From assembly GCA_009914755.4 (NCBI GenBank), contig CP068257.2, positions 1,248,001 to 1,312,000 on the forward strand: 64,000 nt of DNA, written 5' to 3'. This document shows, one piece after another, positions 1-64,000 of the stretch (positions within the stretch are counted from its first letter, which is position 1; the number at the start of each line of letters is the position of its first letter). The translations under genes were made by a program, and so were the position numbers. The stretch is from the human T2T-CHM13v2.0 reference genome, Homo sapiens. Under the pieces are notes generated by a model. It was not told the DNA's origin. It saw only the letters and a list, made by a program, of their open reading frames with translations, and did not search any database.

Positions 1-1477
1 CAAATATATATTCTATACTGTACATAAAATATCAAAGTACCCAAACAATACATTATATACTGTATATAAAATATGAAATTACATCAAATATATATTATAT
101 TAGGTACATAAAATATGAAAGTACATCAAATATAGATTATATACTGTACATAAAATATCAAATTACACCAAATATATATTATATACTGTACATGAAATAT
201 CAAAGTTCACAAACTATATATTATATACTGTACATAAAATATGAATGTACCCAAGGTATATATTCTATACTGTAAAAAAAATATGAAAGTACCCAAACCA
301 TGTATTATATACTGTACATAAAATATGAAAGTACATAAAATGTATATTTTAATCTGTAGAAAAAATATAAAAGTACACCAAATATATATTCTATAGTGTA
401 CAAAAAATTAAAAAGTACCCAAACTATACATTATATACTGTACATAAAATATGAAATTACGTCAAAAATATATTAGGTACGTAAAATATGAAAGTACATC
501 AAATATAAATTATATACCGTACATAAAATATCAAAGTACACCAAATATATATTATAAAGTATACATGAAATATCAAAGTTCACAAACTATGTATTATAAA
601 CTGTACATAAAATATCAAAATACCCAAGGTATATATTCTATACTGTATAAAAAATATCAAAGTACCCAAAGTATGTATTATATACTGTACATAAAATATG
701 AAAGTACATCAAATATATATTTTATTCTATACAAAAAATATCAAAGTACAGCAAATATATATTCTATACTGTACATAAAATATCAAAGTACCCAAAGCAT
801 GTATTATATACTGTACATAAAATATGAAAGTACATGAAATATATATATTATTCTGTACATAAAATATCAAAGTACACGAAATATATATTCTATAGTGTAC
901 ATAAAATATCAAAGTACCCAAACTATACTTTATGTACAGTACATAAAATATCAAATTACATCAAAAATATATTATATTAGGTACAAAAAATATGAAAGTA
1001 CATCATATATAGATTATATACTGTACATAAAATATCAAAGTACCCCAAATATATATTATATACTCTACATGAAATATCAAAGTTCACAAACTATATATTT
1101 TATACTGTACATAAAATATCAATGTACCCAAGGTATATATTCTATACGGTACAAAAAATATCAAAGTACCCAAAGCATGTATTATATACTGTACATAAAA
1201 TATGAAAGTACATCAAATATATATTTTATTCTGTACATAAAATATCAAAGTACACCAAATATATATTCTATAGTGTACATAAAATATCAAAGTACCCAAA
1301 CTATACATTATATACTGTACATAAAATATGAAATTACATCAAAAAAATATTAGGTACGTAAAATATGAAAGTACATCAAATATAGATTATATACCTTACA
1401 TAAAATATCAAAGTACCCCAAATATATATTATATACTGTACATGAAATATCAAAGTTCAGAAACTATATATTATATA

Positions 1478-1529
1478 CTGTACATAAAATATCAAAGTAC
1501 CCAAGTACATCAAATGTAGATTGTATACC
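1478..1529 (+). repeat. Fused (deletion-junction) monomer: a C-type 5' part (…caaagtacccaag) joined to an I-type 3' part (tacatcaaatgtagattgtatacc). A second instance is at 4227-4277.
   Basis: ctgtacataaaatatcaaagtacccaag|tacatcaaat… was read directly at both sites, 2749 nt apart. The flanking ORFs end …QSTQVHQM (1519) and …QSTQVHQI (4267). Confidence 0.7.
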
Positions 1530-2076
1530 GTACATAAAATATCAAAGTACCCTAAATATATATTATATACTGTACATGAAATATCAAAGTTCACAAACTA
1601 TATATTATATACTGTACATAAAATATCAATGTACCAAGGTATATATTCTATACTGTACAAAAAATATCAAAGTACCCAAAGCATGTGTTATATACTGTAC
1701 ATAAAATATGAAAGTACATCAAATATATATTTTATTCTGTACAAAAAATATCAAAGTACACCAAATATATATTCTATAGTGTACATAAAATATCGAAGTA
1801 CCCATACTATACATTATATACTGTACATAAAATATGAAATTACATCAAATATATATTATATTAGGTACATAAAATATGAAAGTACATTAAATATAGATTA
1901 TATACTGTACATAAAATACCAAAGTACCCCAAATATATATTTTATACTGTACATGAAATATCAAAGTTCACAACTATATATTATATACTGTACATAAAAT
2001 ATCAAAGTACCCAAGGTATATATTCTATACTGTACAAAAAATATCAAAGTACCCAAAGCATGTATTATATACTGTT

Positions 2077-3530
2077 CATAAGATACGAAAGTACATCAAA
2101 TATATATTTTATTCTGTACATAATATATCAAAGTACATGAAATATATATTCCATAGTGTACATAAAATATCAAAGTACCCAAACTATACATTATATACTG
2201 TACATAAAATATGAAATTACATCAAATATATATTATATTAGGTACATAAAATATGAAAGTACATCAAATATAGATTATATACTGTACATAAAATACCAAA
2301 GTACCCCAAATATATATTTTATACTGTACATGAAATATCAAACTTCACAAACTATATATTATATACTCTACATAAAATATCAATGTACCCAAGGTATATA
2401 TTGTATACTGTACAAAAAATATCAAAGTACCCAAAGCATGTATTATATACTGTACATAAAATATGAAAGTACATCAAATATATATTTTATTCTGTACATA
2501 AAATATCAAAGTACACGAAATATATATTCTATACTGTACATAAAATATCAAAGTACCCAAACTATACATTATATACTGTACATAAAATATGAAATTACAT
2601 CAAACATATATTATATTAGGTACATAAAATATGAAAGTACATAAAATATGAAAATACATCAAATATAGATTATATACTGTACATAAAATACCAAAGTACC
2701 CCAAATATATTTTATACTGTACATGAAATAACAAAGTTCACAAACTATATATTATATACTGTATATAAAATATCAAAGTAACCAAGGTATATATTCTATA
2801 CTGTACAAAAAATATCAAAGTACCCAAAGCATGTATTATATACTGCACAAAAAATATGAAAGTACATCAAATATATATTTTATTCTGTACATAAAATATC
2901 AAAGTACACCAAATATATATTGTATATTGTACATAAAATATCAAAGTATCCAAACTATACTTTATATACTGTACATAAAATATGGAATTACATCAAATAT
3001 ATATTATATTAGGTACATAAAATATGAAAGTACATCAAATATAGATTATATACTCTACATAAAATATCAAGGTACCCAAATATATATTATATACTGTACA
3101 TGAAATATCAAAGTTCACAAACTATATATTATATACTGTACATAAAATATCAATGTACCCAAGTATATATTCTATACTGTACAAAAAATATCAAAGTACC
3201 CAAAGCATGTATTATATACTGTACATAAAATATGAAAGTACATCAAATATATATTTTATTCTGTACATAAAATATCAAAGTACACGAAATATATATTCTA
3301 TAGTTTACATACAATATCAAAGTACCCAAAATATACATTATATACTGTACATAAAATATGAAATTACATCATATATATATTATATTAGGTACATGAAATA
3401 TGAAGGTACATCAAATATAGGTTATATACTGTACACAAAATATCAAAGTACCCCAAATATATATTATATGCTTTACATGAAATATCAAAGTTCACTAACT
3501 ATATATTATATACGGTACATAAAATATCAA
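2077..3530 (+). repeat. Ancient duplicated block, with a diverged partner at 10380-12180. The offset is 8303 and drifts to 8286 and then 8650 through indels.
   Basis: Rare variants are shared between the two: cataagatacgaaag at 2077 and 10380; …QSIQTILYILYIKYG(I/L)TSNIYYIRYIKYESTSNIDYILYIKYQ(G/S)TQIYIIYCT in ORFs 2831 and 11117; tttacatacaatatcaaagtacccaaaatatac at about 3303 and 11953. Confidence 0.55.
2156..2533 (+). repeat. Reference copy of the 378-bp HOR. Monomer order is G-H-I-A-B-C-D-E-F; monomer H is 43 bp and contains atatattatattagg; monomer I is 41 bp.
   Basis: A G-type monomer (gtgtacataaaatatcaaagtacccaaactatacattatata) starts at 2156 and the same type recurs at 2534. In ORF 2156..2644 the motif QSTQTIHYILYIKYEITSNIYYIRYIKYESTSNID recurs after 126 aa, which is 378 nt. 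Confidence 0.8.
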
Positions 3531-4319
3531 TGTACCCAAGGTATATATTCTATACTGTACAAAAAATATCAAAGTACCCAAAGCATGTATTATATACTGT
3601 ACATAAAATATGAAATTACATCAAATGTATATTTTATTCTGTAAATAAAATATCAAACTATACCAAATATATATTCTATAGTGTACATAAAATATCAAAG
3701 TACGCAAACTATACATTATATACTGTACATAATATATGAAATTACATCAAATACATTTATATTAGGTACATAAAATATGAAAGTACATCGAATATAGATT
3801 ATATACCGTACATAAAATATCAAAGTACCCCAAATATATATTATATACTGTACATGAAATATCAAAGTTCATAAACTATATATTACGTACTGTACATAAA
3901 ATAACAAAGTACCCATGGTATATATTCTATACTTTACAAAAAATATCAAATTACCCAAAGCATGTATTATATACTGTACATAAAATATGAAAGTGCATCA
4001 AATATATATTTTATTCTGTACATAAAATATCAAAGTACCCTTACTATACATTATATACTGTACATAAAATATGAAATTACATCAAATATATATTATATTA
4101 GGTACATAAAATATGAAAGTACATCCAATATAGATTATATACTGTACATAAAATATCAAAGTACCCCAAATATATATTATATACTGTACATGAAATATCA
4201 AATTTCACAAACTACGTATTATATACTGTACATAAAATATCAAAGTACCCAAGTACATCAAATATAGATTATATACCGTATATAAAATATCAAAGTACCC
4301 TAAATATATATTATATACT

Positions 4320-6909
4320 GTACATGAAATATCAAAGTTCACAAACTATATATTATATACTGTACATAAAATATCAAAATACCCAAGGTATATATTCTAT
4401 ACTGTACAAAAAATATCAAAGTACCCAAAGCATGTATTATATACTGTACATAAAATATGAAAGTACATCAAATATATATTTTATTCTGTACATAAAATAT
4501 CAAAGTACACCAAATATATATTCTATAGTGTACATAAAATATCAAAGTACCCAAACTATAGATTACATACTGTACATAGAATATGAAATTACATCAAAAA
4601 TATATTAGGTACATAAAATATGAAAGTACATCAAATATAGATTATATACTGTACATAAAATATCAAAGTACCCCAAATATATATTATATACACTACATGA
4701 GATACCAAAGTTCACAAACTATATATTATATACTGTACATAAAATATCAATGTACCAAGGTATATATTCTATACTGTACAAAAAATATCAAAGTACCCAA
4801 AGCATGTGTTATATACTGTACATAAAATATGAAAGTACATCAAATATATATTTTATTCTGTACATAAAATATCAAAGTACACCAAATATATATTCTATAG
4901 TGTACATAAAATATCAAAGTACCCAAACTATACATTATATACTGTACATAAAATATGAAATTATATCAAAAATATATTAGGTACGTAAAATATGAAAGTA
5001 CATCAAATACAGATTATATACCTTACATAAAATATCAAAGTACCCCAAATATATATTATATACTGTACATGAAATATCAAAGTTCACAAACTATATATTA
5101 TATACTGTACATAAAATAACAAAGTACCCAAGGTATATATTCTATACTGTAAAAAAATATCAAAGTACCCAAATCATGTATTATGTACTGTACATAAAAT
5201 ATGAAATTACATCAAATATATATTTTATTCTGCACATAAAATATCAAACTACAGCAAATATATATTCTATAGTGTACATAAAATATCAAAATACCCAAAC
5301 TATACATTATATACTGTACAAAATATATGAAATTACATCAAATATATATTATATTAGGTACATAAAAGATCAAAGTACATCAAATATAGATTATATACTG
5401 TACATAAAATATCAAAGTACCCCAAATATATATTACATACTGTACATGAAATATCAAAGTTCACAAACTATATATTATATACTGTACATAAAATATCAAT
5501 GTACCCAAGGTATATATTCTATACTGTACAAAAAATATCAAAGTACCCAAAGCATGTATTATATACTGTACATAAAATATGAAAGTACATCAAATATATA
5601 TTTTATTCTGTACAAAAAATATCAAAGTACACCAAATATATATTCTATAGTGTACATAAAATATCAAAGTACCCAAACTATACATTATATACTGTACATA
5701 AAATATGAAATGATATCAAATATATATTACATTAGGTACATAAAATATGAAAGTACATCAAATATAGATTATATACTGTACATAAAATATCAAAGTACCC
5801 AAATATATATTATATACTGTACAGGAAATATCAAAGTTCACAAACTATATATTATATACTGTACATAAAATATCAATGTACCCAAGTATATATTCTATAC
5901 TGTACAAAAAATATCAAAGTACCCAAAGCATGTATTCTATACTGTACATAAAATATGAAAGTACATCAAATATATATTTTATTCTGTACATAAAATATCA
6001 AAGTACACCAAATATATATTCTATACTGTACAAAAAATATCAAAGTATCCAAACTATACATTATATACTGTACATAAAATATGAAATTACATCAAATATA
6101 TATTATATTAGGTACATAAAATATTAAAGTACATCAAATATAGATTAAATAGTGTACATAAAATATCAAAGTACCCCAAATATATATTATATACTGTACA
6201 TGAAATATCAAAGTTCACAAACTATATATTATATACTGTACATAAAATATCAATGTACCCAAGTTATATATTCTATACTGTACAAAAAATATCAAACTAC
6301 CCAAAGCATGTATTATATACTGTACATAAAATATGAAAGTACATCAAATATATATTTTCTTCTGTACAAAAAATATCAAAGTACACCAAATATATATTCT
6401 ATAGCGTACATAAAATATCAATGTACCCAAACTATACATTATATACTGTACATAAAATATGAAATTACATCAAAAATATATTATATTAGGTACGTAAAAT
6501 ATGAAAGTACTTCAAAGATAGATTATATACCTTACATAAAATATCAAAGTACCCCAAATATATATTATATACTGTACATGAAATATCAAATTTCAGAAAC
6601 TATGTATTATATACTGTACATAAACTAAAAAAGTACCCAAGGTATATATTCTATACTTTACAAAAAATATCAAAGTACCCAAAGCATGTATTATATACTG
6701 TACATAAAATATGAAAGCACATCAAATATATATTTTATTCTGTAAATAAAATATCAACATACCCTTACTATACATTATATACTGTACATAAAATATGAAA
6801 TTACATCAAATATATATCATATTAGGTGCATAAAATATGAAAGTACATCAAATATAGATTATATACTGTACATAAAATATCAAAGTACCCCAAATATATA
6901 TTATATACT
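4320..6909 (+). repeat. Copy 1 of a 2590-bp tandem segmental duplication (about 7 HORs), almost identical to copy 2.
   Basis: ORFs at 4324, 4583, 4750, 5176, 5876 and 6152 reappear with identical or near-identical translations at +2590 (6914, 7173, 7340, 7766, 8466, 8742). The 230-aa ORFs 5176 and 7766 differ at one residue. Confidence 0.85.
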
Positions 6910-9545
6910 GTACATGAAATATCAAAGTTCACAAACTATATATTATATACTGTACATAAAATATCAAAATACCCAAGGTATATATTCTATACTGTACAAA
7001 AAATATCAAAGTACCCAAAGCATGTATTATATACTGTACATAAAATATGAAAGTACATCAAATATATATTTTATTCTGTACATAAAATATCAAAGTACAC
7101 CAAATATATATTCTATAGTGTACATAAAATATCAAAGTACCCAAACTATAGATTACATACTGTACATAGAATATGAAATTACATCAAAAATATATTAGGT
7201 ACATAAAATATGAAAGTACATCAAATATAGATTATATACTGTACATAAAATATCAAAGTACCCCAAATATATATTATATACTGTACATGAGATACCAAAG
7301 TTCACAAACTATATATTATATACTGTACATAAAATATCAATGTACCAAGGTATATATTCTATACTGTACAAAAAATATCAAAGTACCCAAAGCATGTGTT
7401 ATATACTGTACATAAAATATGAAAGTACATCAAATATATATTTTATTCTGTACATAAAATATCAAAGTACACCAAATATATATTCTATAGTGTACATAAA
7501 ATATCAAAGTACCCAAACTATACATTATATACTGTACATAAAATATGAAATTATATCAAAAATATATTAGGTACGTAAAATATGAAAGTACATCAAATAC
7601 AGATTATATACCTTACATAAAATATCAAAGTACCCCAAATATATATTATATACTGTACATGAAATATCAAAGTTCACAAACTATATATTATATACTGTAC
7701 ATAAAATAACAAAGTACCCAAGGTATATATTCTATACTGTAAAAAAATATCAAAGTACCCAAATCATGTATTATGTACTGTACATAAAATATGAAATTAC
7801 ATCAAATATATATTTTATTCTGCACATAAAATATCAAACTACAGCAAATATATATTCTATAGTGTACATAAAATATCAAAATACCCAAACTATACATTAT
7901 ATACTGTACAAAATATATGAAATTACATCAAATATATATTATATTAGGTACATAAAAGATCAAAGTACATCAAATATAGATTATATACTGTACATAAAAT
8001 ATCAAAGTACCCCAAATATATATTACATACTGTACATGAAATATCAAAGTTTACAAACTATATATTATATACTGTACATAAAATATCAATGTACCCAAGG
8101 TATATATTCTATACTGTACAAAAAATATCAAAGTACCCAAAGCATGTATTATATACTGTACATAAAATATGAAAGTACATCAAATATATATTTTATTCTG
8201 TACAAAAAATATCAAAGTACACCAAATATATATTCTATAGTGTACATAAAATATCAAAGTACCCAAACTATACATTATATACTGTACATAAAATATGAAA
8301 TGATATCAAATATATATTACATTAGGTACATAAAATATGAAAGTACATCAAATATAGATTATATACTGTACATAAAATATCAAAGTACCCAAATATATAT
8401 TATATACTGTACAGGAAATATCAAAGTTCACAAACTATATATTATATACTGTACATAAAATATCAATGTACCCAAGTATATATTCTATACTGTACAAAAA
8501 ATATCAAAGTACCCAAAGCATGTATTCTATACTGTACATAAAATATGAAAGTCCATCAAATATATATTTTATTCTGTACATAAAATATCAAAGTACACCA
8601 AATATATATTCTATACTGTACAAAAAATATCAAAGTATCCAAACTATACATTATATACTGTACATAAAATATGAAATTACATCAAATATATATTATATTA
8701 GGTACATAAAATATTAAAGTACATCAAATATAGATTAAATAGTGTACATAAAATATCAAAGTACCCCAAATATATATTATATACTGTACATGAAATATCA
8801 AAGTTCACAAACTATATATTATATACTGTACATAAAATATCAATGTACCCAAGTTATATATTCTATACTGTACAAAAAATATCAAACTACCCAAAGCATG
8901 TATTATATACTGTACATAAAATATGAAAGTACATCAAATATATATTTTCTTCTGTACAAAAAATATCAAAGTACACCAAATATATATTCTATAGCGTACA
9001 TAAAATATCAATGTACCCAAACTATACATTATATACTGTACATAAAATATGAAATTACATCAAAAATATATTATATTAGGTACGTAAAATATGAAAGTAC
9101 TTCAAAGATAGATTATATACCTTACATAAAATATCAAAGTACCCCAAATATATATTATATACTGTACATGAAATATCAAATTTCAGAAACTATGTATTAT
9201 ATACTGTACATAAACTAAAAAAGTACCCAAGGTATATATTCTATACTTTACAAAAAATATCAAAGTACCCAAAGCATGTATTATATACTGTACATAAAAT
9301 ATGAAAGCACATCAAATATATATTTTATTCTGTAAATAAAATATCAACATACCCTTACTATACATTATATACTGTACATAAAATATGAAATTACATCAAA
9401 TATATATCATATTAGGTGCATAAAATATGAAAGTACATCAAATATAGATTATATACTGTACATAAAATATCAAAGTACCCCAAATATATATTATATACTG
9501 TACATGAAATATCAAAGTTCACAAACTATATATTATATACTGTAC
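6910..9545 (+). repeat. Copy 2 of the 2590-bp tandem duplication. Identity to the following unit continues to about 9545. After that the third unit (9504 onward) is an older copy with about 4% nucleotide divergence.
   Basis: The raw sequence 6601-6962 is identical to 9191-9552 and diverges at caaaatacccaagg versus caatgtaaccaagg. ORF 9504 differs from ORF 6914 at roughly 10% of residues. Confidence 0.8.
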
Positions 9546-10443
9546 ATAAAATATCAATGTAACCAAGGTATATATTCTATAATGTACAAAAAATATCAAA
9601 GTACCCAAAGCATGTATTATATACTGTACATAAAATATGAAAGTGCATCAAATATATATTGTCTTCTGTACATAAAATATAAAAGTACACCAAATATATA
9701 TTCTATACTGTACATAAAATATCAAAGTACCCAAACTATACATTATATACTGTACATAAAATATGAAATTACATCAAAAATATATTAGGTATGTAAAATA
9801 TGAAAGTACATCAAAAATAGATTTTATACCTTACATAAAATATCAAAGTACCCCAAATATATATTATATACTGTACATGAAATACCAAATTTCAAAATCT
9901 ATATATTATATACTGTACATAAAATATCAAAGTACCCAAGGTATATGTTCTATAGTGTACAAAAAATATCAAAGTACCCAAAGCATGTATTATATACTGT
10001 ACATAAAATATGAAAGTACATCAAATATATATTTTATTCTGTACATAATATATCAAAGTACAACAAATATATATTCTATAGTGTACATAAAATATCAAAC
10101 TACCCAAACTATTCATTATATACTGTACATAAAAGATGAAATTACATCAAAAATATATTATATTAGGTACATAAAATATGAAAGTACATCAAATATAGAT
10201 TATATACTGCACGTAAAATATCAAAGTACCCCAAATATGTATTATATACTCTACATGAAATATCAAAGTTCACCAACTATATATTATATACTGTACATAA
10301 AATATCAATGTACCCAAGATATATATTCTATACTGTACAAAAAATATCAAAGTACCCAAAGCGTGTATTATATACTGTACATAAGATACGAAAGTACATC
10401 AAATATATATTTTATTCTGTACATAATATATCAAAGTACATGA
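7766..10443 (+). repeat. Older duplicated block, with a diverged partner at +6359 (14125-16826).
   Basis: The ORF pairs 7766/14125, 8466/14825, 8742/15101, 9504/15863 and 9763/16122 all sit at an offset of 6359. Divergence is a few percent on the left and falls to about 1% on the right (the 158-aa ORFs 8742 and 15101 differ at 3 residues). Confidence 0.75.
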
Positions 10444-13400
10444 AATATATATTCCATAGTGTACATAAAATATCAAAGTAGCCAAACTATACATTATATA
10501 CTGTACATAAAATATGAAATTACATCAAATATATATTATATTAGGTACATAAAATATGAAAGTACATCAAATATAGATTATATACTGTACATAAAATACC
10601 AAAGTACCCCAAATATATATTTTATACTGTACATGAAATATCAAAGTTCACAAACTATATATTTTATACTCTACATAAAATATCAAAGTACCCAAGGTAT
10701 ATATTCTATACTGTACAAAAAATATCAAAGTACCCAAAGCATGTATTATATACTGTACATAAAATATGAAAGTACATAAAATATATATTTTATACTGTAC
10801 ATAAAATATCAAAGTACACGAAATATATATTGTATACTGTACATAAAATATCAAAGTACCCAAACTATACATTATATACTGTACATAAAATATGAAATTA
10901 CATCAAACATATATTATATTAGGTACATAAAATATGAAAGTACATCAAATATAGATTATATACTGTACATAAAATACCAAAGTACCCCAAATATATTTTA
11001 TACTGTATATGAAATAACAAAGTTCACAAACTATATATTATATACTGTATAAAAAATATCAAAGTAAACAAGGTATATATTCTATACTGTAGAAAAAATA
11101 TCAAAGTACCGAAAGCATGTATTATATGCTGTACAAAAAATATGAAAGTACATCAAATATATATTTTATTCTGTACATAAAATATCAAAGTACACCAAAT
11201 ATATATTGTATACTGTACATAAAATATCAAATTATCCAAACTATACTTTATATACTGTACATAAAATATGGACTTACATCAAATATATATTATATTAGGT
11301 ACATAAAATATGAAAGTACATCAAATATAGATTATATACTCTACATAAAATATCAAAGTACCCAAATATATATTATATACTGTACATGAAATATCAAAGT
11401 TCACAAACTATATATTATATACTGTACATATAATATCAATGTACCCAAGTATATATTCTATACTGTACAAAAAATATCAAAGTACCCAAAGCATGTATTA
11501 TATACTGTACATAAAATATGAAAGTACATCAAATATATATTTTATTCTGTACATAAAATATCAAAGAACACCAAATATATATTCTATACTCTACATAAAA
11601 TATCAAAGTATCCAAACTATACATTATATACTGTACATAAAATATGAAATTACATCAAAAATATATTAGGTAGGTAAAATATGACAGTACATCAAATATA
11701 GATTATATACCTTACATAAAATATCAAAGTACCCCAAATGTATATTTTATACTGTACATGAAATATCAAAGTTCACAAAATATATATTATATACTGTACA
11801 TAAAATATCAAAGTACCCAAGTATATATACTATACTGTACAAAAAATATCAAAGTACCCAAACATTTATTACATTCTGTACATAAGATATGAAAATACAT
11901 CAAATATATATTTTATTCTGGACATAAAATATCAAAGTACACGAAATATATATTCTAGAGTTTACATACAATATCAAAGTACCCAAAATATACATTATAT
12001 ACTGTACATAAAATATGAAATTACATCATATATATATTATATTAGGTAGATAAAATATGAAAGTACATCAAATATAGATTATATACTGTACACAAAATAT
12101 CAAAGTACCCCAAATATATATTATATGCTTTATATGAAATATCAAAGTCCACAAACTATATATTATATACTGTACATAAAATATCAATGTACCCAAGTTA
12201 TATATTCTATACTGTACAAAAAATATCAAAGTACCCAAAGCATATATTATATACGGTACATAAAATATGAAAGTACATCAAATATATATTGTATTCTGTA
12301 CATAAAATATCAAAGTACACGAAATATATATTCTATAGTGTACATAAAATATCAAAGTACCCAAACTATACATTATATACAGTACATAAAAGATGAAATT
12401 ACATCAAAAATATATTATATTAGGTACATAAAATATGAAAGTACATCAAATATAGATTATATACTGTACATAAAATATCAAAGTACCCCAAATATATATT
12501 ATATACTCTACATGAAATATCAAAGTTCACAAACTATATATTATATACTGTACATAAAATATCAATGTACCCAAGGTATATATTCTATACGGTACAAAAA
12601 ATATCAAAGTACCCAAAGCATGTATTATATACTGTACATAAAATATGAAAGTACATCAAATATATATTTTATTCTGTACATAAAATATCAAAGTACACCA
12701 AATATATATTCTATAGTGTACATAAAATATCAAAGTACCCAAACTATACATTATATACTGTACATAAAATATGAAATTACATCAAATATATATTAGGTAT
12801 GTAAAATATGAAAGTACATCAAATATAGATTATATACCTTACATAAAATATCAAAGTACCCCAAATATATATTATATACTGTACATGAAATATCAAATTT
12901 CACAAACTATATATTATATACTGTACATAAAATATCAAAGTACACAAGTTATATATTCTATACTGTACGAAAAATATCAAAGTACACAAAGCATGTATTA
13001 TATACTGTACATAAAATATGAAAGTACATCAAATATATATTTTATTCTGTACATAAAATATCAAAGTACACCAAATATATATTCTATAGTGTACATAAAA
13101 TATCAAAGTACCCAAACTATACATTATATACTGTAGATAAAATATGAAATTACATCAAATATATATTATATTAGTTACGTAAAATAAGAAAGTACATCAA
13201 TTATAGATTATATACCATACATAAAATATCAAAGTACCCCAAATATATATTTTATACTGTACATGAAATATGAAAGTTCACAAACTATATATTATATACT
13301 GTACATAAAATACCAAAGTACCCAAGGTATATATTCTATACTGTACAAAATATATCAAAGTACCCAAAGCATGTATTATATAATGTACATAAAATATGAA

Positions 13401-50596: not shown

Positions 50597-50966
50597 TACG
50601 TAAAATATGAAATTACATCAAATATATATTAGGTACATAAAATATGAAAGTACATCAAATATAGATTATATACTGTACATATAATATCAATGTACCCCAA
50701 ATATATATTTTATACTCTACATGAAATATCAAAGTTCACAAACCATACATTATATACTGTACATAAAAAATCAAAGTACCCAAGGTATATATTCTATAGT
50801 GTACAAAAAATATCAAAGTACCCAAAGCATGTATTATATACTGTACATAAAATATGAAAGTACATCAAATATATATTTTATTCTGTACATAAAATATCAA
50901 AGTCCACCAGATATATATTCTATAGTGTACATAAAATATCAAAGTACCCAAACTATACATTATATA

Positions 50967-51339: not shown

Positions 51340-52471
51340 CTGTACATAAAATATGACATTACATCAAATATATATTAGGTACATAAAATATGAAAGTACA
51401 TCAAATATAGATTATATAATGTACATAAAATATCAATGTACCCCAAATATATATTTTATACTCTACATGAAATATCAAAGTTCACAAACTATATATTATA
51501 TACTGTACATAAAATATCAAAGTACCCAAGGTATATATTCTATACTGTACAAAAGATATCAAAGTACCCAAAGCATGTATTAGATACTGTACATAAAATA
51601 TGAAAGTACATCAAATATATATTTTATTCTGTACATAAAATATCAAAGTACACCAGATATATATTCTACAGTGTACATAAAATATCAAACTACCCAAACT
51701 ATTTATTATATACTGTACATAAAATATGAAATTACATCAAATATATATTAGGTACATAAAATATGAAAGTACATCAAATATAGATTATATACTGTACATA
51801 AAATATCAATGTACCCCAAATATATATTTTATACTCTACATGAAATATCAAAGTTCACAAACCATATATTATATACTGTACATAAAATATCAAAGTACCC
51901 AAGGTATATATTCTATACTGTACAAAAAATATCAAAGTACCAAAAGCATGTATTATATACTGTACCTAAAATATGACAGTACATCAAATATATATTTTAC
52001 TCTGTACATAAAATATCAAAGTACTCCAGATATATATTCTATAGTGTACATAAAATATCAAAGTACCCAAACTATACATTATATACTGTACATAAAATAT
52101 GAAATTACATCAAATATATATTAGGTACATAAAATATGAAAGTACATCAAATATAGATTATATACTGTACATAAAATATCAATGTACCCCAAATATATAT
52201 TTTATACTCTACATGAAATATCAAAGTTCACAAACCATATATTGTATACTGTACATAAAATATCAAAGTACCCAAGGTATGTATTCTATACTGTACAAAA
52301 AATATCAAAGTACCCAAAGCATGTATTATATACTGTACATAAAATATGAAAGTACATCAAATATATATTTTATTCTGTACATAAAATATCAAGGTACACC
52401 AGATATATATTCTATAGTGTACATAAAATAGCAAAGTACACAAACTATAAATTTTATACTGTACATAAAAT

Positions 52472-55400
52472 ATGAAATTACATCAAATATATATTAGGTA
52501 CATAAAATTTGAAAGTACATCAAATATAGATTATATACTGTACAGAAAATATCAATGTACCCCAAATATATATTTTATACTCTACATGAAATATCAAAGT
52601 TCACAAACCATATATTATATACTGTACATAAAATATCAAAGTACCCAAGGTATATATTCTATACTGTACAAAAAATATCAAAGTACCCAAAGCATGTATT
52701 ATATACTGTACATAAAATATGAAACTTCATCAAATATATATTTTATTCTGTACAAAAAATATCAAAGTACACCAGACATATTTTCTATAGTGTACATAAA
52801 ATATCAAAGTACCCAAAGCATGTATTATATACTGTACATAAAATATGAAAGTACATCAAATATATATTTTATTCTGTACATAAAACATCAAAGTACACCA
52901 GATATATATTCTATAGTGTACATAAAATATCAAAGTACCCAAACTATACATTATATACTGTACATAAAATATGAAATTACATCAAATATATATTATATTA
53001 GGTACATAAAATATGAAAGTACATCAAATATAGATTATATACTGTACATAAAATATCAAAGTACCCAAATATATATTATATACTCTACATGAAATATCAA
53101 AGTTCACAAACTATATATTATATACTGTACATAAAATATCAAAGTACCCAAGGTATATATTCTATACTGTACAAAAAATATCAAAGTATCCAAAGCATGT
53201 ATTATATACTGTATATAAAATATGAAAGTACATTAAATATATATTTTATTCTGTACATAAAATATCAAAGTACACCAGATATATATTCTATAGTGTACAT
53301 AAAATAACAAAGTACACAAACTATAAATTATATACTGTACATAAAATATGAAATTACATCAAATATATATTAGGTACATAAAATATGAAAGTACATCAAA
53401 TATAGATTATATACTGTACATATAATATCAATGTACCCCAAATATATATTTTATACTCTACATGAAATATCAAATTTCACAAACCATACATTATATACTG
53501 TAAATAAAATATCAAATTACACAAGGTATATATTCTATACTGTACAAAAAATATGAAAGTACCCAAAGCATGTATTATATACTGTACATAAAATATGAAA
53601 GTACATCAAATATATATTTTATTCTGTACAAAAAATATCAAAGTACACCAGATATATATTCTATAGTGTACATAAAATAACAAAGTACACAAAATATAAA
53701 TTATATACTGTACATAAAATATGAAATTACATCAAATATATATTAGGTACATAAAATATGAAAGTACATCAAATATAGATTATATACTGTACATAAAATA
53801 TCAATGTACCCCAAATATATATTTTATACTCTACATGAAATATCAAAGTTCACAAACCATATATTATATACTGTACATAAAATATCAAAGTACCCAAGGT
53901 ATATATTCTATACTGTACAAAAAATATCAAAGTATCCAAAGCACGTATTATATACTGTATATAAAATATGAAATTACATTAAATATATATTTTATTCTGT
54001 ACATAAAACATCAAAGTACACCAGATATATATTCTATAGTGTACATAAAATATCAAAGTAACCAAACTATACATTATATACTGTACAGAAAATATGAAAT
54101 TACATCAAATATATATTATATTAGGTACATAAAATATGAAAGTACATCAAATATAGATTCTATACTGTACATAAAATATCAAAGTACCCCAAATATATAT
54201 TATATACTCTACATGAAATATCAAAGTTCACAAACTATATATTATATACTGTACATAAAATATCAAAGTACCCAAGGTATATATTCTATACTGTACAAAA
54301 AATATCAAAGTATCCAAAGCATGTATTATATACTGTATATAAAATATGAAAGTACATTAAATATATATTTTATTCTGTACATAAAATATCAAAGTACACC
54401 AGATATATATTCTATAGTGTACATAAAATATCAAAGTACGCAAACTATACATTATATACTGTACATAAAATATGAAATTACATCAAATATATATTAGGTA
54501 CATAAAATATGAAAGTGCATCAAATATAGATTATATACTGTACATAAAATATCAAAGTACCCCAAATATATATTATATACTCTACATGAAATATCAAAGT
54601 TCACAAACTATATATTATAAACTATACATAAAATATCAAGGTACCCAAGGTATATATTCTATACTGTACAAAAAATATCAAAGTACCCAAAGCATGTATT
54701 ATATACTGTACATAAAATATGAAAGTACATCAAATATATATTTTACTCTGTACATAAAATATCAAAGTACACCAGATATATATTCTATAGTGTACATAAA
54801 ATAACAAAGTACACAAACTATAAATTATATACTGTACATAAAATATGAAATTACATCAAATATATATTAGGTACATAAAATATGAAAGTACATCAAATAT
54901 AGATTATATACTGTACATAAAATATCAATGTACCCCAAATATATATTTTATACTCTACATGAAATATCAAAGTTCACAAACCATATATTATATACTGTAC
55001 ATAAAATATCAAAGTACCCAAGGTATGTATTCTATACTATACAAAAAATATCAAAGTACCCAAAGCATGTATTATATACTGTACATAAAATATGAAAGTA
55101 CATCAAATATATATTTTATTCTGTACACAAAATATCAAAGTACACCAGATATATATTTTATAGTGTACATAAAATATCAAAGTACCCAAACTATACATTA
55201 TACACTGTACATAAAATATGAGATTACATCAAATATATATTATATTAGGTACATAAAATATGAAAGTACATCTGATATAGATTATATACTGTACATAAAA
55301 TATCAAAGTACCCCAAATATATATTATATACTCTACATGAAATATCAAAGTTCACAAACTATATATTATATACAGTACATAAAATATCAAAGTACCCAAG

Positions 55401-57460
55401 GTATATATTCTATACTGTACAAAAAATATCAAAGTACCCAAAGCATGTATTATATACTGTATATAAAATATGAAAATACATTAAATATATATTTTATTCT
55501 GTACATGAAATATAAAGGTACACCAGATATATATTCTATAGTGTACATAAAATAACAAAGTACACAAACTATAAATTATATACTGTACGTAAAATATGAA
55601 ATTACATCAAATATATATTAGGTACATAAAATATGAAAGTACATCAAATATAGATTATATACTGTACATATAATATCAATGTACCCCAAATATATATTTT
55701 ATACTCTACATGAAATATCAAAGTTCACAAACCATACATTATATACTGTACATAAAAAATCAAAGTACCCAAGGTATATATTCTATAGTGTACAAAAAAT
55801 ATCAAAGTACCCAAAGCATGTATTATATACTGTACATAAAATATGAAAGTACATCAAATATATATTTTATTCTGTACATAAAATATCAAAGTCCACCAGA
55901 TATATATTCTATAGTGTACATAAAATATCAAAGTACCCAAACTATACATTATATACTGTACATAAAATATGAAATTACATCAAATATATATTAGGTACAT
56001 AAAATATGAAAGTACATCAAATATAGATTATATACTGTACATAAAATATCAAAGTACCCCAAATATATATTATATACTCTACATGAAATATCAAAGTTCA
56101 CAAACTATATATTATATACTGTACATAAAATATCAAAGTACCCAAGGTATATACTCTATACTGTAAAAAAAATATCAAAGTACCCAAAGCATGTATTATA
56201 TACTGTACATAAAATATGAAAGTACATCAAATATATATTTTATTCTGTACATAAAATATCAAAGTACACCAGATATATATTCTATAGTGAACATAAAATA
56301 ACAAAGTACACAAACGATAAATTATATACTGTACATAAAATATGACATTACATCAAATATATATTAGGTACATAAAATATGAAAGTACATCAAATATAGA
56401 TTATATAATGTACATAAAATATCAATGTACCCCAAATATATATTTTATACTCTACATGAAATATCAAAGTTCACAAACTATATATTATATACTGTACATA
56501 AAATATCAAAGTACCCAAGGTATATATTCTATACTGTACAAAAGATATCAAAGTACCCAAAGCATGTATTAGATACTGTACATAAAATATGAAAGTACAT
56601 CAAATATATATTTTATTCTGTACATAAAATATCAAAGTACACCAGATATATATTCTACAGTGTACATAAAATATCAAACTACCCAAACTATTTATTATAT
56701 ACTGGACATAAAATATGAAATTACATCAAATATATATTAGGTACATAAAATATGAAAGTACATCAAATATAGATTATATACTGTACATAAAATATCAATG
56801 TACCCCAAATATATATTTTATACTCTACATGAAATATCAAAGTTCACAAACCATATATTATATACTGTACATAAAATATCAAAGTACCCAAGGTATATAT
56901 TCTATACTGTACAAAAAATATCAAAGTACCAAAAGCATGTATTATATACTGTACCTAAAATATGACAGTACATCAAATATATATTTTACTCTGTACATAA
57001 AATATCAAAGTACTCCAGATATATATTCTATAGTGTACATAAAATATCAAAGTACCCAAACTATACATTATATACTGTACATAAAATATGAAATTACATC
57101 AAATATATATTAGGTACATAAAATATGAAAGTACATCAAATATAGATTATATACTGTACATAAAATATCAATGTACCCCAAATATATATTTTATACTCTA
57201 CATGAAATATCAAAGTTCACAAACCATATATTGTATACTGTACATAAAATATCAAAGTACCCAAGGTATGTATTCTATACTGTACAAAAAATATCAAAGT
57301 ACCCAAAGCATGTATTATATACTGTACATAAAATATGAAAGTACATCAAATATATATTTTATTCTGTACATAAAATATCAAGGTACACCAGATATATATT
57401 CTATAGTGTACATAAAATAGCAAAGTACACAAACTATAAATTTTATACTGTACATAAAAT
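52472..57460 (+). repeat. Copy B of the 4989-bp tandem super-repeat. A partial third copy starts at 57461 and diverges by about 57850.
   Basis: As above. ORF 57461 matches ORF 52472 over its first ~130 residues and then diverges. Confidence 0.85.
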
Positions 57461-58700
57461 ATGAAATTACATCAAATATATATTAGGTACATAAAATTTG
57501 AAAGTACATCAAATATAGATTATATACTGTACAGAAAATATCAATGTACCCCAAATATATATTTTATACTCTACATGAAATATCAAAGTTCACAAACCAT
57601 ATATTATATACTGTACATAAAATATCAAAGTACCCAAAGTATATATTCTATACTGTACAAAAAATATCAAAGTACCCAAAGCATGTATTATATACTGTAC
57701 ATAAAATATGAAACTTCGTCAAATATATATTTTATTCTGTACAAAAAATATCAAAGTACACCAGACATATTTTCTATAGTGTACATAAAATATCAAAGTA
57801 CCCAAAGCATGTATTATATACTGTACATAAAATATGAAAGTACATCAAATATATATTCTATTCTGTGCATAAAATATCAAAGTACACCAGATATATATTC
57901 TATAGTGTACATAAAATATCAAAAGTACCCAAACTATACATTATATACTGTACATAAAATATGAAATTACTTCAAATATATATTATATTAGGTACATAAA
58001 ATATGAAAGTACATCAAATATAGATTATATACTGTACATTAAATACCAAAGTACCCCAAATATATATTTTATACTGTACATGAAATATCAAAGTTCACAC
58101 ACTATATATTATATACTGTACATAAAATATCAAAGTACCCAAGCTATATATTCTATACTGTACAAAAAATATCAAAGTACCCAAAGCATGTATTATATAC
58201 TGTACATAAAATATGAAAGTACATCAAATATATATTATACTCTGTACATAAAATATCAAAGTACACCAGATATATATTCTATAGTGTACATAAAATATCA
58301 AAGTACCCAAACTATACATTATATACTGTACTTAAAATATGAGATTACATCAAATATATATTATATTAGCTACATAAAATATGAAAGTACATCAGATATA
58401 GATTATATACTGTACATAAAATATCAAAGTACCCCAAATATATATTATATACTCTACATGAAATATCAAAGTTCACAAACTACATATTATATACTGTACA
58501 TAAAATATCAAAGTACCCAAGGTATATATTCTATACTGTACAAAAAATATCAAAGTACCCAAAGCATGTATTATATACTGTATACAAAATATGAAAATAC
58601 ATTAAATATATATTTTATTCTGTACATAAAATATCAAAGTACACCAGATATGTATTCTATAGTGTACATAAAATAACAAAGTACACAAACTATAAATTAT
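57461..58700 (+). repeat. Block with a related copy at about +5007 (62468-63700). Both share a private 1-bp insertion (caaaagtac).
   Basis: The 167-aa ORFs 57461 and 62468 are about 93% identical. Both end …YIKYQKYPNYTLYTVHKI because of an extra A at 57920-57928 and 62931-62939. The rare variant ttcacacact occurs at about 58090 and 63100. Confidence 0.6.
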
Positions 58701-59842
58701 ATACTGTACATAAAATATGAAATTACATCAAATATATATTAGGTACATAAAATATGAAAGTACATCAAATATAGATTATATACTGTACATATAATATCAA
58801 AGTACCCCAAATATATATTTTATACTCTACATGAAATATCAAAGTTCACAAACCATACATTATATACTGTACATAAAATATCAAAGTACCCAAGGTATAT
58901 ATTCTATACTGTACAAAAAATATCAAAGTACCCAAAGCATGTATTATATACTGTACATAAAATATGAAAGTACATCAAATATATATTTTATTCTGTACAT
59001 AAAATATCAAAGTACACCAGATATATATTCTATAGTGTACATAAAATATCAAAGTACCCAAACTATACATTATATACTGTACATATAATATGAAATTACA
59101 TCAAATATATATTATATTAGGTACATAAAATATGAAAGCACATCAAATATAGATTATATACTGTACATTAAATACCAAAGTACCCCAAATATATATTTTA
59201 TACTGTACATCAAATATCAAAGTTCACAAACTATATATTATATACTGTACATAAAATATCAAAGTACCCAAGGTATATATTCTATACTGTACAAAAAATA
59301 TCAAAGTACCCAAAGCATGTATTATATACTGTACATAAAATATGAAAGTACATCAAATATATATTTTATTCTGTACATAAAACATCAAAGTACACCAGAT
59401 ATATATTCTATAGTGTACATAAAATATCAAAGTACCCAAACTATACATTATACACTGTACATAAAATATGAGATTACATCAAATATATATTATATTAGGT
59501 ACATAAAATATGAAAGTACATTTGATATAGATTATATACTGTACATAAAATATCAAAGTACCCCAAATATATATTATATACTCTACATGAAATATCAAAG
59601 TTCACAAACTATATATTATATACTGTACATAAAATAAAGTACCCAAGGTATATATTCTATACTGTACAAAAAATATCAAAGTACACAAAGCATGTATTAT
59701 ATACTGTACATAAAATATGAAAGTACATCAAATATATATTTTATTCTGTACATAAAATATCAAAGTACACCAGATATATATTCTATAGTGTACATAAAAT
59801 AACAAAGTACACAAACCATAAATTATATACTGAACATAAAAT

Positions 59843-60930
59843 ATGACATTACATCAAATATATATTAGGTACATAAAATATGAAAGTACATCAAATATAG
59901 ATTATATACTGTACATAAAATATCAATGTACCCCAAATATATATTTTATACTCTACATGAAATATCAAAGTTCACAAACTATATATTATATACTGTACAT
60001 AAAATATCAAAGTACCCAAGGTATATATTCTATACTGTACAAAAGATATCAAAGTACCCAAAGCACGTATTATATACTGTACAAAAAATATGAAAGTACA
60101 TCAAATATATATTTTATTCTGTACATAAAATATCAAAGTACACCAGATATATATTCTATAGTGTACATAAAATATCAAACTACCCAAACTATTTATTATA
60201 TACTGTACATAAAATTTGAAATTACATCAAATATATATTATATTAGGTACATAAAATATGAAAGTACATCAAATATAGATTATATACTGTACACTAAAAA
60301 CCAAAGTACCCCAAATATATATTTTATACTGTACATGAAATATCAAAGTTCACAAACTATATGTTATATACTGTACATAAAATATCAAAGTACCCAAGGT
60401 ATGTATTCTATACTGTACAAAAAATATCAAAGTACCCAAAGCATGTATTATATACTGTACATAAAATATGAAAGTACATCAAATATATATTTTATTCTGT
60501 ACATAAAATATCAAGGTACACCAGATATATATTCTATAGTGTACATAAAATAGCAAAGTACACAAACTATAAATTATATACTGTACATAAAATATGAAAT
60601 TACATCAAATATATATTAGGTACATAAAATATGAAAGTACATCAAATATAGATTATATACTGTACATAAAATATCAATGTACCCCAAATATATATTTTAT
60701 ACTCTACATGAAATATCAAAGTTCACAAACCATATATTGTATACTGTACATAAAATATCAAAGTACCCAAGGTATGTATTCTATACTGTACAAAAAATAT
60801 CAAAGTACCCAAAGCATGTATTATATACTGTACATAAAATATGAAAGTACATCAAATATATATTTTATTCTGTACATAAAACATCAAAGTACACCAGATA
60901 TATATTCTATAGTGTACATAAAATATCAAA
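59843..60930 (+). repeat. Block related to 56342-57420 at an offset of about 3501-3506.
   Basis: The MTLHQIYIRYIKYESTSNIDYI(M/L)YIKYQCTPNIYFILYMKYQ… ORFs at 56342 and 59843 correspond. ORFs 57088 and 60594 share the rare …QTIYCILYIKYQSTQGMYSILYKKYQ…. Confidence 0.55.
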
Positions 60931-63900
60931 GTACCCAAACTATACATTATATACTGTACATAAAATATGAAATTACATCAAATATATATTATATTAGGTA
61001 CATAAAATATGAAAGTACATCAAATATAGATTATATACTGTACATAAAATACCAAAGTACCCCAAATATATATTATATACTCTACATGAAATATCAAATT
61101 TCACAAACTATATATTATATACTGTACATAAAATATCAAAGTACCCAAGGTATATATTCTATACTGTACAAAAAATATCAAAGTATCCAAACATGTATTA
61201 TATACTGTATATAAAATATGAAAGTACATTAAATATATATTTTATTCTGTACATAAAATATCAAAGTACACCAGATATATATTCTATAGTGTACATAAAA
61301 TAACAAAGTACACAAACTATAAATTATATACTGTACATAAAATATGAAATTTCATCAAATATATATTAGGTACATAAAATATGACAGTACATCAAATATA
61401 GATTATATACTGTACATAAAATATCAATGTACCCCAAATATATATTTTATACTCTACATGAAATATCAAAGTTCACAAACCATATATTATATACTGTACA
61501 TAAAATATCAAAGTACCCAAGGTATATATTCTATACTATACAAAAAATATCAAAGTACCCAAAGCATGTATTATATACTGTACATAAAATATGAAAGTAC
61601 ATCAAATATATATTTTATTCTGTACACAAAATATCAAAGTACACCACATATATATTCTATAGTGTACATAAAATATCAAAGTACCCAAACTATACATTAT
61701 ACACTGTACATAAAATATGAGATTACATCAAATATATATTATATTAGGTACATAAAATATGAAAGTACATCTGATATAGATTATATACTGTACATAAAAT
61801 ATCAAAGTACCCCAAATATATATTATATACTCTACATGAAATATCAAAGTTCACAAACTATATATTATATACTGTACATAAAATATCAAAGTACCCAAGG
61901 TATATATTCTATACTGTACAAAAAATATCAAAGTACCCAAAGCATGTATTATATGCTGTACATAAAATATGAAAGTACATCAAATATATATTTTATTCTG
62001 TACATAAAATATCAAAGTACACCAGATATATATTCTATAGTGTACATAAAATAACAAAGTACACAAACTATAAATTATATACTGTACATAAAATATGACA
62101 TTACATCAAATATATATTAGGTACATAAAATATGAAAGCACATCAAATATAGATTATATACTGTACATTAAATACCAAAGTAACACAAATATATATTTTA
62201 TACTGTACATCAAATATCAAAGTTCACAAGCTATATATTATATACTGTACATAAAATATCAAAGTACCCAAGGTATATATTCTATACTGTACAAAAAATA
62301 TCAAAGTACCCAAAGCATGTATTATATACTGTACATAAAATATGAAAGTACATCAAATATATATTTTATTCTGTACATAAAATATCAAAGTACACCAGAT
62401 ATATATTCTATAGTGTACATATAATAACAAAGTACACAAACTATAAATTATATACTGTACATAAAATATGAAATTACATCAAATATATATTAGGTACATA
62501 AAATATGAAAGTACATCAAATATAGATTATATACTGTACATAAAATATCAAAGTACCCCAAATATATATTTTATACTCTACATGAAATATCAAAGTTCAC
62601 AAACCATATATTATATACTGTACATAAAATATCAAAGTACCCAAGGTATATATTCTATACAGTACAAAAAATATCAAAGTACCCAAAGCATGTATTATAT
62701 ACTGTACATAAAATATGAAACTTCATCAAATATATATTTTATTCTGGACAAAAAATATCAAAGTACACCAGACATATTTTCTATAGTGTACATAAAATAT
62801 CAAAGTACCCAAAGCATGTATTATATACTGTACATAAAATATGAAATTACATCAAATATATATTTTATTCTGTACATAAAATATCAAAGTACACCAGATA
62901 TATATTCTATAGTGTACATAAAATATCAAAAGTACCCAAACTATACATTATATACTGTACATAAAATATGAAATTACATCAAATATATATTATATTAGGT
63001 ACATAAAATATGAAAGTACATCAAATATAGATTATATACTGTACATTAAATACCAAAGTACCCCAAATATATATTTTATACTGTACATGTAATATCAAAG
63101 TTCACACACTATATATTATATACTGTACATAAAATATCAAAGTACCAAAGGTATATATTCTATACTGTACAAAAAACATCAAAGTACCCAAAGCATGTAT
63201 TATATACTGTACATAAAATATGAAAGTACGTCAAATATATATTGTATTCTGTACGTAAAATATCAAAGTACACCAGATATATATTCTATAGTGTATATAA
63301 AATATCAAAGTACCCAAACTATATATTATATACTGTACATAAAATATGAAATTACATCAAATATATATTATATTAGGTACATAAAATATGAAAGTACATC
63401 AAATATAGATTATATACTGTACATAAAATATCAAAGTACCCCAAAGATATATTATATACTCTACATGAAATATCAAAGTTCACAAACTATATATTATATA
63501 CTGTACATAAAATATCAAAGTACCCAAGGTATATATTCTATACTGTACAAAAAATATCAAAGTACCCAAAGCATGTTTTATATACTGTATATAAAATATG
63601 AAAGTACATCAAATATATATTTTATTCTGTACATAAAATATCAAAGTACACCAGATATATATTCTATAGTGTACATAAAATAACAAAGTACACAAACTAT
63701 AAATTATATACTGTACGTAAAATATGAAATTACATCAAATATATATTAGGTACATAAAATATGAAAGTACATCAAAAATAGATTATATACTGTACATATA
63801 ATATCAATGTACCCCAAATATATATTTTATACTCTACATGAAATATCAAAGTTCAGAAACCATATATTATACACTGTACATAAAATATCAAAGTACCCAA

Positions 63901-64000
63901 GGTATATATTCTATACTGTACAAAAAATATCAAAGTACCCAAAGCATGTATTATATACTGTACATAAAATATGAAAGCACATCAAATATATATTTTATTC

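What the first reader, a model, noticed from the sequence alone, without database searches (positions are those of the whole stretch)
1..64000. The entire window is one uninterrupted satellite array: 42-bp monomers in a 9-monomer HOR of 373 or 378 bp
There is no gene content. This is a single-orientation tandem array with a clear hierarchy of 42-bp monomers, nine monomer types in fixed order, and HORs. I cannot match it to any satellite family I know, so it may be undescribed or simply unrecognised. An uninterrupted array longer than 64 kb with HOR structure is typical of centromeric or pericentromeric satellites. An array of this size and purity is very unlikely to be prokaryotic.
Basis: partly seen in the sequence, partly recalled or inferred. 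Interest (0 to 1): 0.5.

Follow-up and report, generated by a model that had tools for sequence, protein, structure and literature searches.

The report
Human satellite 1A (HSat1A) array
The whole window is an internal stretch of human satellite 1A, the long-known AT-rich 42-bp satellite of pericentromeres and acrocentric short arms, so the repeat structure is real but already described.

Summary
All 64,000 bases are one head-to-tail, single-orientation array with 21.5% GC. It contains 1,532 monomers, and 1,412 of them are exactly 42 bp. The monomers are ordered in a nine-monomer higher-order repeat (HOR). Monomers nine apart are 92.5% identical, against about 81% at other offsets. Of 166 HOR units, 66 are 373 bp and 55 are 378 bp. 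About 11% are structural variants with 8 or 12 monomers. There are no interruptions, RNA genes or protein domains.

The "possibly undescribed" reading fails. This is HSat1A, also called SAR or classical human satellite I. GTAC sites split each monomer into 17 + 25 bp, matching the published A/B subunits. The 378-bp nine-monomer repeat and the 751-bp period (373+378) are both published for HSat1A. A published human HSat1A transcript read aligns at 89% over 202 nt (E 1e-72).

The same HOR occurs at 96-99% identity on tiny, mostly ~1x-coverage contigs in unrelated bacterial assemblies. That is the usual signature of human DNA contamination, so a human source is likely. A non-human African ape is not excluded. 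The chromosome cannot be determined from the window.

Verdict: already known, low interest.

The parts
1..64000 (+). One continuous HSat1A (SAR) array of 1,532 complete monomers that runs off both ends of the window. The + strand reads GTACATAAAATATCAAA (A subunit, 17 bp) followed by GTACACCAAATATATATTATATACT (B subunit, 25 bp).
   Evidence: TRF period 42 over 1..63998. Lag identities. Monomer segmentation. GTAC spacing of 17 bp (926 times) and 25 bp (831 times). A published human HSat1A read aligns on the + strand at 89%.
1..19236 (+). Domain 1, the less regular part of the array. HOR units are mostly 377/378 bp, with 336-bp 8-monomer units and other variants. The boundary at about 19.2 kb is approximate.
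   Evidence: Unit lengths and type strings. Mean HOR identity is 93.7% within domain 1 and 92.8% between domains.
19237..64000 (+). Domain 2, with interleaved 373-bp and 378-bp HOR haplotypes. The interleaving produces the 751-bp and 1124/1129-bp periods.
19615..19992 (+). Example of a 378-bp nine-monomer HOR unit (ABCDEFGHI).
21500..21872 (+). Example of a 373-bp HOR unit. Monomer 7 is 37 bp because of a 5-bp deletion, and monomers 6 and 9 are variant forms.
4401..9590 (+). Tandem copies of a 2,590-bp super-repeat made of seven HOR units (373+372+377+377+377+378+336). The copies are 99.7-100% identical.
28401..37600 (+). First copy of a 9.2-kb intra-array duplication. The partner copy lies 13,216 bp downstream.
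   Evidence: 99.67% ungapped identity.
41617..50816 (+). Second copy of the 9.2-kb duplication.
47601..57789 (+). Two tandem copies of a 4,989-bp block, 47601-52800 and 52590-57789, at 99.88% identity.

Best explanation
The window is an internal piece of a human satellite 1A array. HSat1A is also called SAR in RepeatMasker/Dfam and classical satellite I. It is the most AT-rich satellite of the human genome and lies in pericentromeric heterochromatin and on acrocentric short arms. The basic unit is a 42-bp monomer made of a 17-bp A subunit and a 25-bp B subunit. Nine diverged monomers form a higher-order unit of 378 bp, and a second haplotype of that unit is 373 bp.

Shown here: copies of the higher-order unit are far more alike than neighbouring monomers are. 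Multi-kilobase blocks of higher-order units have been duplicated in tandem very recently, at 99.7-99.9% identity.

Inferred from established models of satellite evolution: the array is maintained and reshaped by unequal crossing-over or replication-associated tandem duplication, with the nine-monomer unit as the unit of homogenisation. Monomer-register slips generate the 8- and 12-monomer variants.

The array encodes nothing. It is constitutive heterochromatin rather than the kinetochore-forming satellite. Low-level transcription into non-coding RNA has been reported for the family.
For: Structure: 42-bp period, HOR at nine monomers, 373/378 units. Substructure: GTAC sites are spaced 17 and 25 bp apart, matching the published A (17 bp) + B (25 bp) description. 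Composition: 21-22% GC throughout, against 23% for cloned HSat1A. Published periodicities of HSat1A are 378, 751, 3013, 3474 and 6330 bp, and the 4.9-Mb chr13 array shows a 378-bp HOR. The window shows 378 and 751. Sequence: a 217-nt human HSat1A 3'RACE read (PMC9909926, Additional file 6) aligns over 202 nt at 89.1%, E 1e-72, with 1,425 plus-strand HSPs. Its monomers are 83-93% identical to the window's monomer consensus. Human source: 34 contigs carrying the core 24-mer sit in unrelated bacterial assemblies (Streptomyces, Legionella, Mycobacterium, oral Streptococcus and Rothia MAGs), and 32 of them are full-length satellite contigs of 250-1,540 bp with 19-25% GC, mostly at ~1x coverage. Twenty match the window's HOR at 96-99% (nineteen over their full length, L004 over its 487-bp satellite part). 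This fits the documented pattern of human high-copy-repeat contamination (PMC6581058). CpG is depleted to 88 observed against 682 expected, as expected for methylated vertebrate DNA. An independent ENA metagenome contig (L001/L036) has the same 42/373/378 periods and aligns at 95.8% over 3.77 kb. Recent tandem duplication: blocks of 2.6-9.2 kb at 98.8-99.9% identity. No coding or RNA content.
Against: The window was not compared directly with a human genome assembly or with the Dfam SAR consensus (DF0001062), because neither was available. Species and chromosome are therefore inferred, not shown. HSat1A is also abundant in chimpanzee, bonobo and gorilla. Published HSat1A primers match the window only with 3 or more mismatches, so the window belongs to a different subfamily from those cloned loci. 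The duplication mechanism is inferred from the sequence pattern. Near-identical multi-kb copies could in principle include assembly error.
Confidence: 0.95

Rival explanations
1. It is the orthologous SAR/HSat1A satellite of a non-human African ape (chimpanzee, bonobo or gorilla) rather than of human.
For: HSat1A is expanded in non-human African apes, including on their X, Y and acrocentric chromosomes. Nothing in the window itself names the species.
Against: The same HOR, not merely the same monomer family, occurs at 96-99% identity on contaminant contigs in many unrelated bacterial assemblies and human oral MAGs. The expected common contaminant there is human DNA. The 378- and 751-bp periods are those published for human arrays.
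Confidence: 0.1
2. It is a previously undescribed satellite family from an unidentified eukaryote.
For: No repeat database such as Repbase or Dfam could be queried here.
Against: All tested defining features of HSat1A are met. A published human HSat1A read aligns at 89% over 202 nt, which is higher than the identity between neighbouring monomers within the window itself.
Confidence: 0.01
3. It is HSat1B (HSATI), the other family of classical satellite I.
For: Both families are AT-rich and come from the same density fraction.
Against: [quoted passage not shown] The window has uniform 21-22% GC, no gap longer than 126 bp between core motifs and no foreign insert.
Confidence: 0.01
4. It is prokaryotic, phage, plasmid or synthetic-construct DNA, or an assembly artefact that inflates a much shorter repeat.
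For: The core 24-mer is found in 34 contigs of bacterial genome assemblies. Several multi-kb blocks are 99.7-100% identical, as a collapsed or expanded assembly might produce.
Against: The bacterial hits are mostly short, mostly ~1x-coverage contigs of about 21% GC in hosts such as high-GC actinomycetes. Two of them are chimeric. There is no match in 72,556 plasmids or 50,697 phage records. HOR copies differ by real substitutions and structural variants, with 87-100% pairwise identity. An independent contig shows the same organisation.
Confidence: 0.02

Closest known systems
HSat1A (SAR, Dfam DF0001062; classical human satellite I, 42-bp A+B repeat)
   Same: 42-bp monomer, 17+25 bp substructure, about 21-23% GC, nine-monomer 378-bp HOR, 751-bp period, long single-orientation arrays without transposon inserts, and direct sequence similarity to a published human HSat1A read.
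   Different: No defining feature differs. This stretch is a particular subfamily or haplotype mix: 373/378 interleaved, with a 2,590-bp super-repeat and a 13.2-kb duplication. It is not the locus of the cloned references, because primers from JX174276.1 and pTRI-6 have 3 or more mismatches. The longer published periods (3013, 3474, 6330 bp) are not the ones seen here.
HSat1B (HSATI)
   Same: AT-rich classical satellite I fraction.
   Different: HSat1B has a composite unit containing Alu fragments and lies mostly on the Y chromosome. The window has no such insert.
Alpha satellite higher-order repeats
   Same: Same kind of organisation and presumed dynamics. Diverged monomers form a multi-monomer unit that is homogenised as a whole, with structural-variant HORs, HOR haplotypes and local recent expansions (for alpha satellite; here).
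   Different: Alpha satellite has monomers of about 171 bp and is the satellite on which CENP-A chromatin forms. The window's monomer is 42 bp, and HSat1A arrays lie beside or interrupt alpha arrays.

Membership tests
HSat1A / SAR | Tandem 42-bp monomer | tested here: met
   TRF period 42 with 1533 copies. 1,412 of 1,532 monomers are exactly 42 bp. Definition taken.
HSat1A / SAR | Monomer composed of alternating A (17 bp) and B (25 bp) units | tested here: met
   GTAC-to-GTAC spacing is 17 bp (926 times) and 25 bp (831 times). That RsaI (GTAC) delimits the units in the original description is my recollection of Prosser et al. 1986 and was not checked here.
HSat1A / SAR | Extreme AT-richness (most AT-rich part of the genome; clones about 23% GC) | tested here: met
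   20.8-22.3% GC in every 2-kb window. Literature values.
HSat1A / SAR | Higher-order organisation as a 378-bp nine-monomer repeat (also a 751-bp period) | tested here: met
   Offset-9 identity is 92.5% against about 81% elsewhere. Units of 378 bp (55) and 373 bp (66). Lag 751 is a peak. Literature.
HSat1A / SAR | Sequence similarity to bona fide HSat1A sequence | tested here: met
   A human HSat1A 3'RACE read aligns at 89.1% over 202 nt, E 1e-72, with 1,425 + strand HSPs. Comparison with the Dfam SAR consensus was not possible because the consensus was not available.
HSat1A / SAR | Location in pericentromeres of chromosomes 3, 4 and 13 and on acrocentric short arms | not testable with these tools
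   The window has no non-satellite flank and no human assembly could be searched.
HSat1A / SAR | Source organism is human (or another African ape) | tested here: inconclusive
   The same HOR occurs at 96-99% identity in contaminant contigs of unrelated bacterial assemblies. This pattern is typical of human DNA contamination. CpG is depleted. Apes are not excluded.
HSat1B / HSATI | Composite unit of AT-rich sequence plus Alu fragments | tested here: not met
   Uniform GC. The maximum gap between core motifs is 126 bp. There are no foreign monomers.
Alpha satellite | Monomer of about 171 bp | tested here: not met
   No 171-bp period appears. The ranked periods are 42 bp and its multiples, plus 373 and 378.

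The most novel reading that the evidence does not exclude
The particular arrangement could be an uncatalogued HSat1A array variant that is specific to a chromosome, a haplotype or a non-human ape. The arrangement consists of two interleaved HOR haplotypes of 373 and 378 bp, a 2,590-bp seven-HOR super-repeat and a 13.2-kb macro-duplication. If so, it would be useful as a marker for tracing exchange between acrocentric short arms.
Probability: 0.15. Interest if true: 0.15.

Novelty: already known. Interest (0 to 1): 0.06.

Why it matters
It matters little as a discovery, because HSat1A and its 378-bp HOR are already described in complete human and ape assemblies. It has two practical uses. First, the window is a clean positive control showing that the first-stage reader can read monomer and HOR structure correctly from raw sequence, although it failed to recognise a classical human satellite. 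Second, this satellite sits as contaminant contigs in bacterial species-representative genomes and metagenome assemblies. There, its stop-free reading frames are called as genes and feed spurious proteins into databases.

Tried and rejected
- Full-text searches for six 17-23-mers and six 13-15-mers of the monomer found no paper that prints the sequence in its main text. The only hit was an unrelated fission-yeast paper. Real HSat1A sequence was eventually found in a supplementary table.
- The Altemose review (DOI 10.1016/j.semcdb.2022.04.012) and PMC9233505 are not held.
- A coding reading was considered because 117 ORFs of 60 aa or more, up to 415 aa, lie almost all on the + strand. It was rejected. 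Two frames of the 42-bp (14-codon) consensus on each strand have no stop codon, so long ORFs are automatic. They break where 373-bp units shift the frame. They have no Pfam match.
- Rfam, tRNA, plasmid and phage searches gave nothing.
- Published primers for JX174276.1 and pTRI-6 were tested as subfamily markers. There were no matches with 2 or fewer mismatches, so they give no locus assignment.
- An exact look-up of a recurrent 72-aa ORF found only one ENA metagenome contig. Its sample (ERZ25068762) cannot be identified with these tools.
- The costly protein-database searches and the metagenome scan were deliberately not used, because the answer did not depend on them.
Full report

Yes. Tandem Repeats Finder reports a single array from 1 to 63,998 with period 42, 1,533 copies and 79% matches. 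Base composition is flat at 20.8-22.3% GC, with constant negative GC skew and positive AT skew across all 32 two-kilobase windows. There is therefore no inversion and no foreign insert.

Ungapped self-identity as a function of lag peaks at 42 bp (0.775) and its multiples, then at 373 (0.617) and 378 (0.614). Lags 374-377 and 379 give 0.27-0.36, and the compositional expectation is 0.344. Further peaks lie at 751 and 1124.

The 15-mer CTGTACATAAAATAT occurs 574 times on the + strand and never on the - strand. The longest stretch without a near-match to the core motif is 126 bp.

**2. Anatomy**

A wrap-around alignment to the 42-bp consensus GTACATAAAATATCAAAGTACACCAAATATATATTATATACT cuts the window into 1,532 monomers. 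Of these, 1,412 are 42 bp, 76 are 37 bp and 32 are 41 bp. Mean identity between monomers is 80.5-83% at every offset except multiples of nine: 92.5% at 9, 91.6% at 18 and 91.3% at 27.

Clustering gives nine monomer types in the order ABCDEFGHI. Cutting at each A-B junction gives 166 higher-order units:
- 66 of 373 bp
- 55 of 378 bp
- 16 of 377 bp
- 6 of 372 bp
- 148 of the 166 have exactly nine monomers.

The other units are monomer-register variants. They include three 336-bp units lacking E, about eight ~503-bp units with CDE duplicated, and two truncated units of 168 and 210 bp.

The 373- and 378-bp forms are distinct HOR haplotypes. The 373 form has a 37-bp monomer 7, in which ...ATATT ATATT AG is reduced to ...ATATT AG. 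It also has five changes in monomer 6 (four substitutions and one inserted base) and two substitutions in monomer 9. Interleaving of the two haplotypes explains the 751- and 1124/1129-bp periods.

Pairwise identity among nine-monomer units averages 93.8%, with a range of 87-100%.

The window has two domains:
- From 1 to about 19.2 kb the units are mostly 377/378 bp with 336-bp variants. A 2,590-bp block of seven units is repeated at 99.7-100% identity.
- From about 19.2 kb onward the 373/378 mixture dominates.

Large, very recent tandem duplications are nested in the array:
- 9.2 kb at a distance of 13,216 bp (28401-37600 against 41617-50816, 99.67%)
- 5.2 kb at a distance of 4,989 bp (99.88%)
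- several blocks of 2-3.4 kb.

**3. Gene content**

There is none. Rfam at gathering thresholds finds nothing, ARAGORN finds no tRNA, and the three longest ORFs have no Pfam match.

The 117 ORFs of 60 aa or more, almost all on the + strand and up to 415 aa, are artefacts. The monomer is 14 codons long, and two frames of its consensus on each strand lack stop codons. Open frames therefore persist until a 373-bp unit shifts the frame.

**4. What it is**

GTAC sites are spaced 17 bp (926 times) and 25 bp (831 times) apart. Each monomer is therefore a 17-bp unit plus a 25-bp unit. [quoted passage not shown] It reported new HORs in HSat1. [quoted passage not shown] That array is 4.9 Mb long.

PMC9909926 lists the HSat1A periodicities as 378, 751, 3013, 3474 and 6330 bp. 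The value 751 equals 373+378, the dimer seen here.

For a sequence-level test I took a 217-nt human HSat1A 3'RACE read from Additional file 6 of PMC9909926. It aligns to the window over 202 nt at 89.1% identity (E 1e-72), and 1,425 of its 1,427 HSPs are on the + strand. Its five monomers are 83-93% identical to the window's consensus. That is as close as the window's own neighbouring monomers are to each other. Family membership is therefore established by sequence as well as by architecture.

HSat1B is excluded because there is no Alu-containing composite unit. Alpha satellite is excluded by the period.

**5. Source organism**

This could not be shown directly, because no human or ape assembly is searchable here. 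Three lines of indirect evidence are available.

- **Contaminant contigs.** A scan of 185,579 prokaryotic species-representative genomes for the core 24-mer found 34 contigs. Thirty-two are 250-1,540 bp long with 19-25% GC and are satellite along their full length; most that state a coverage are at about 1x. The other two (L004, L006) are chimeric. They come from unrelated assemblies, including high-GC Streptomyces, Actinomadura and Mycobacterium, Legionella, marine single-cell genomes, and human oral Streptococcus mitis and Rothia MAGs. Twenty match the window's HOR at 96-99% identity, nineteen of them over their full length. The others match at 82-92%, presumably from other HSat1A subfamilies. 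This is the documented signature of human contamination. [quoted passage not shown]
- **CpG depletion.** CpG is depleted to 13% of expectation (88 observed against 682 expected), as in methylated vertebrate DNA.
- **Independent contig.** An ENA metagenome contig of 14.7 kb, of which 10.8 kb was read, carries an identical 72-aa artefactual ORF. It shows the same 42/373/378 periods and aligns at 95.8% over 3.77 kb.

Human origin is therefore likely. HSat1A is also expanded in chimpanzee, bonobo and gorilla and is absent from orangutan acrocentric arms, so an African ape source remains possible. The chromosome cannot be assigned. The published primers for JX174276.1 and pTRI-6 do not match with fewer than three mismatches.

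**6. How it works**

Two things are shown. HOR copies are much more alike than adjacent monomers are. Blocks of several HORs have been duplicated in tandem so recently that the copies differ by only 0.1-0.3%.

The following is inferred from the standard model of satellite evolution, as discussed for alpha satellite:
- Unequal crossing-over or replication-associated duplication in HOR register homogenises and expands the array locally.
- Out-of-register events at monomer level produce the 8- and 12-monomer variants.
- A slip between two ATATT repeats produced the 373-bp haplotype.

Functionally the array is non-coding constitutive heterochromatin. On human chromosomes 3 and 4, HSat1A arrays interrupt the active alpha-satellite arrays, and on chromosome 4 CENP-A lies on the alpha satellite on either side. 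"Pericentromeric" is therefore right, and "centromere-forming" is not. Low-level transcription of HSat1A has been reported (PMC9909926).

**7. Verdict**

The suggestion of novelty is wrong. This is a textbook satellite family whose HOR was published with the T2T assemblies.

Novelty: already known. Interest: low.

Noticed in passing
window 1-64000, + strand (e.g. 16122-17369, 29641-30729): 117 ORFs of 60 aa or more (up to 415 aa) arise only because the 42-bp (14-codon) monomer has stop-free frames. Gene callers do call them: 19 'genes' are listed on the related ENA contig L036, and one 72-aa product is present verbatim in the public protein collection. This satellite therefore seeds spurious proteins.
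   Followed up: partly
L002-L035 (genome-contig scan): 34 contigs carrying HSat1A sit in prokaryotic species-representative assemblies; 32 are 250-1,540 bp, 19-25% GC and satellite along their full length, most at about 1x coverage. Examples are Thiocystis violacea NZ_NRRF01000279.1, Streptomyces sp. DH5, Legionella sp. 515359 and Actinomadura cremea BMRF01000199.1. They look like unremoved human contamination. Twenty match this window's HOR at 96-99%.
   Followed up: partly
L004 1-1674 (LZSE01000128.1, Mycobacterium sp. 1554424.7 contig_83): This is a chimeric contig. 487 bp of HSat1A (99.2% identical to window 23109-23595, minus strand) is joined to about 1.2 kb of low-GC sequence with bacterial-looking ORFs. 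Neither part fits a Mycobacterium genome.
   Followed up: no
L006 1-179 (CALGXU010000221.1, uncultured Rothia sp. MAG, 8.6-kb contig): A 59%-GC bacterial contig ends in 179 bp of HSat1A-like sequence (88.8% to the window). This is probably an assembly chimera between host and bacterial reads.
   Followed up: no
window 1-64000: CpG is strongly depleted (88 observed, 682 expected from base composition) while GpC occurs 248 times. This is consistent with long-term cytosine methylation of the array.
   Followed up: no
window about 19,069-19,614: A boundary lies here between two HOR-variant domains, marked by a truncated 168-bp unit (ABCD). Upstream units are mostly 377/378/336 bp. Downstream the 373/378 haplotypes interleave.
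   Followed up: partly
window-wide, primers from PMC9909926 Table S1: The published HSat1A PCR/qPCR primers (F1/R1 on JX174276.1, F2/R2 on pTRI-6 L01057.1) have no site in the window with fewer than 3-4 mismatches. Copy-number and expression assays based on them may under-sample this HOR subfamily.
   Followed up: partly
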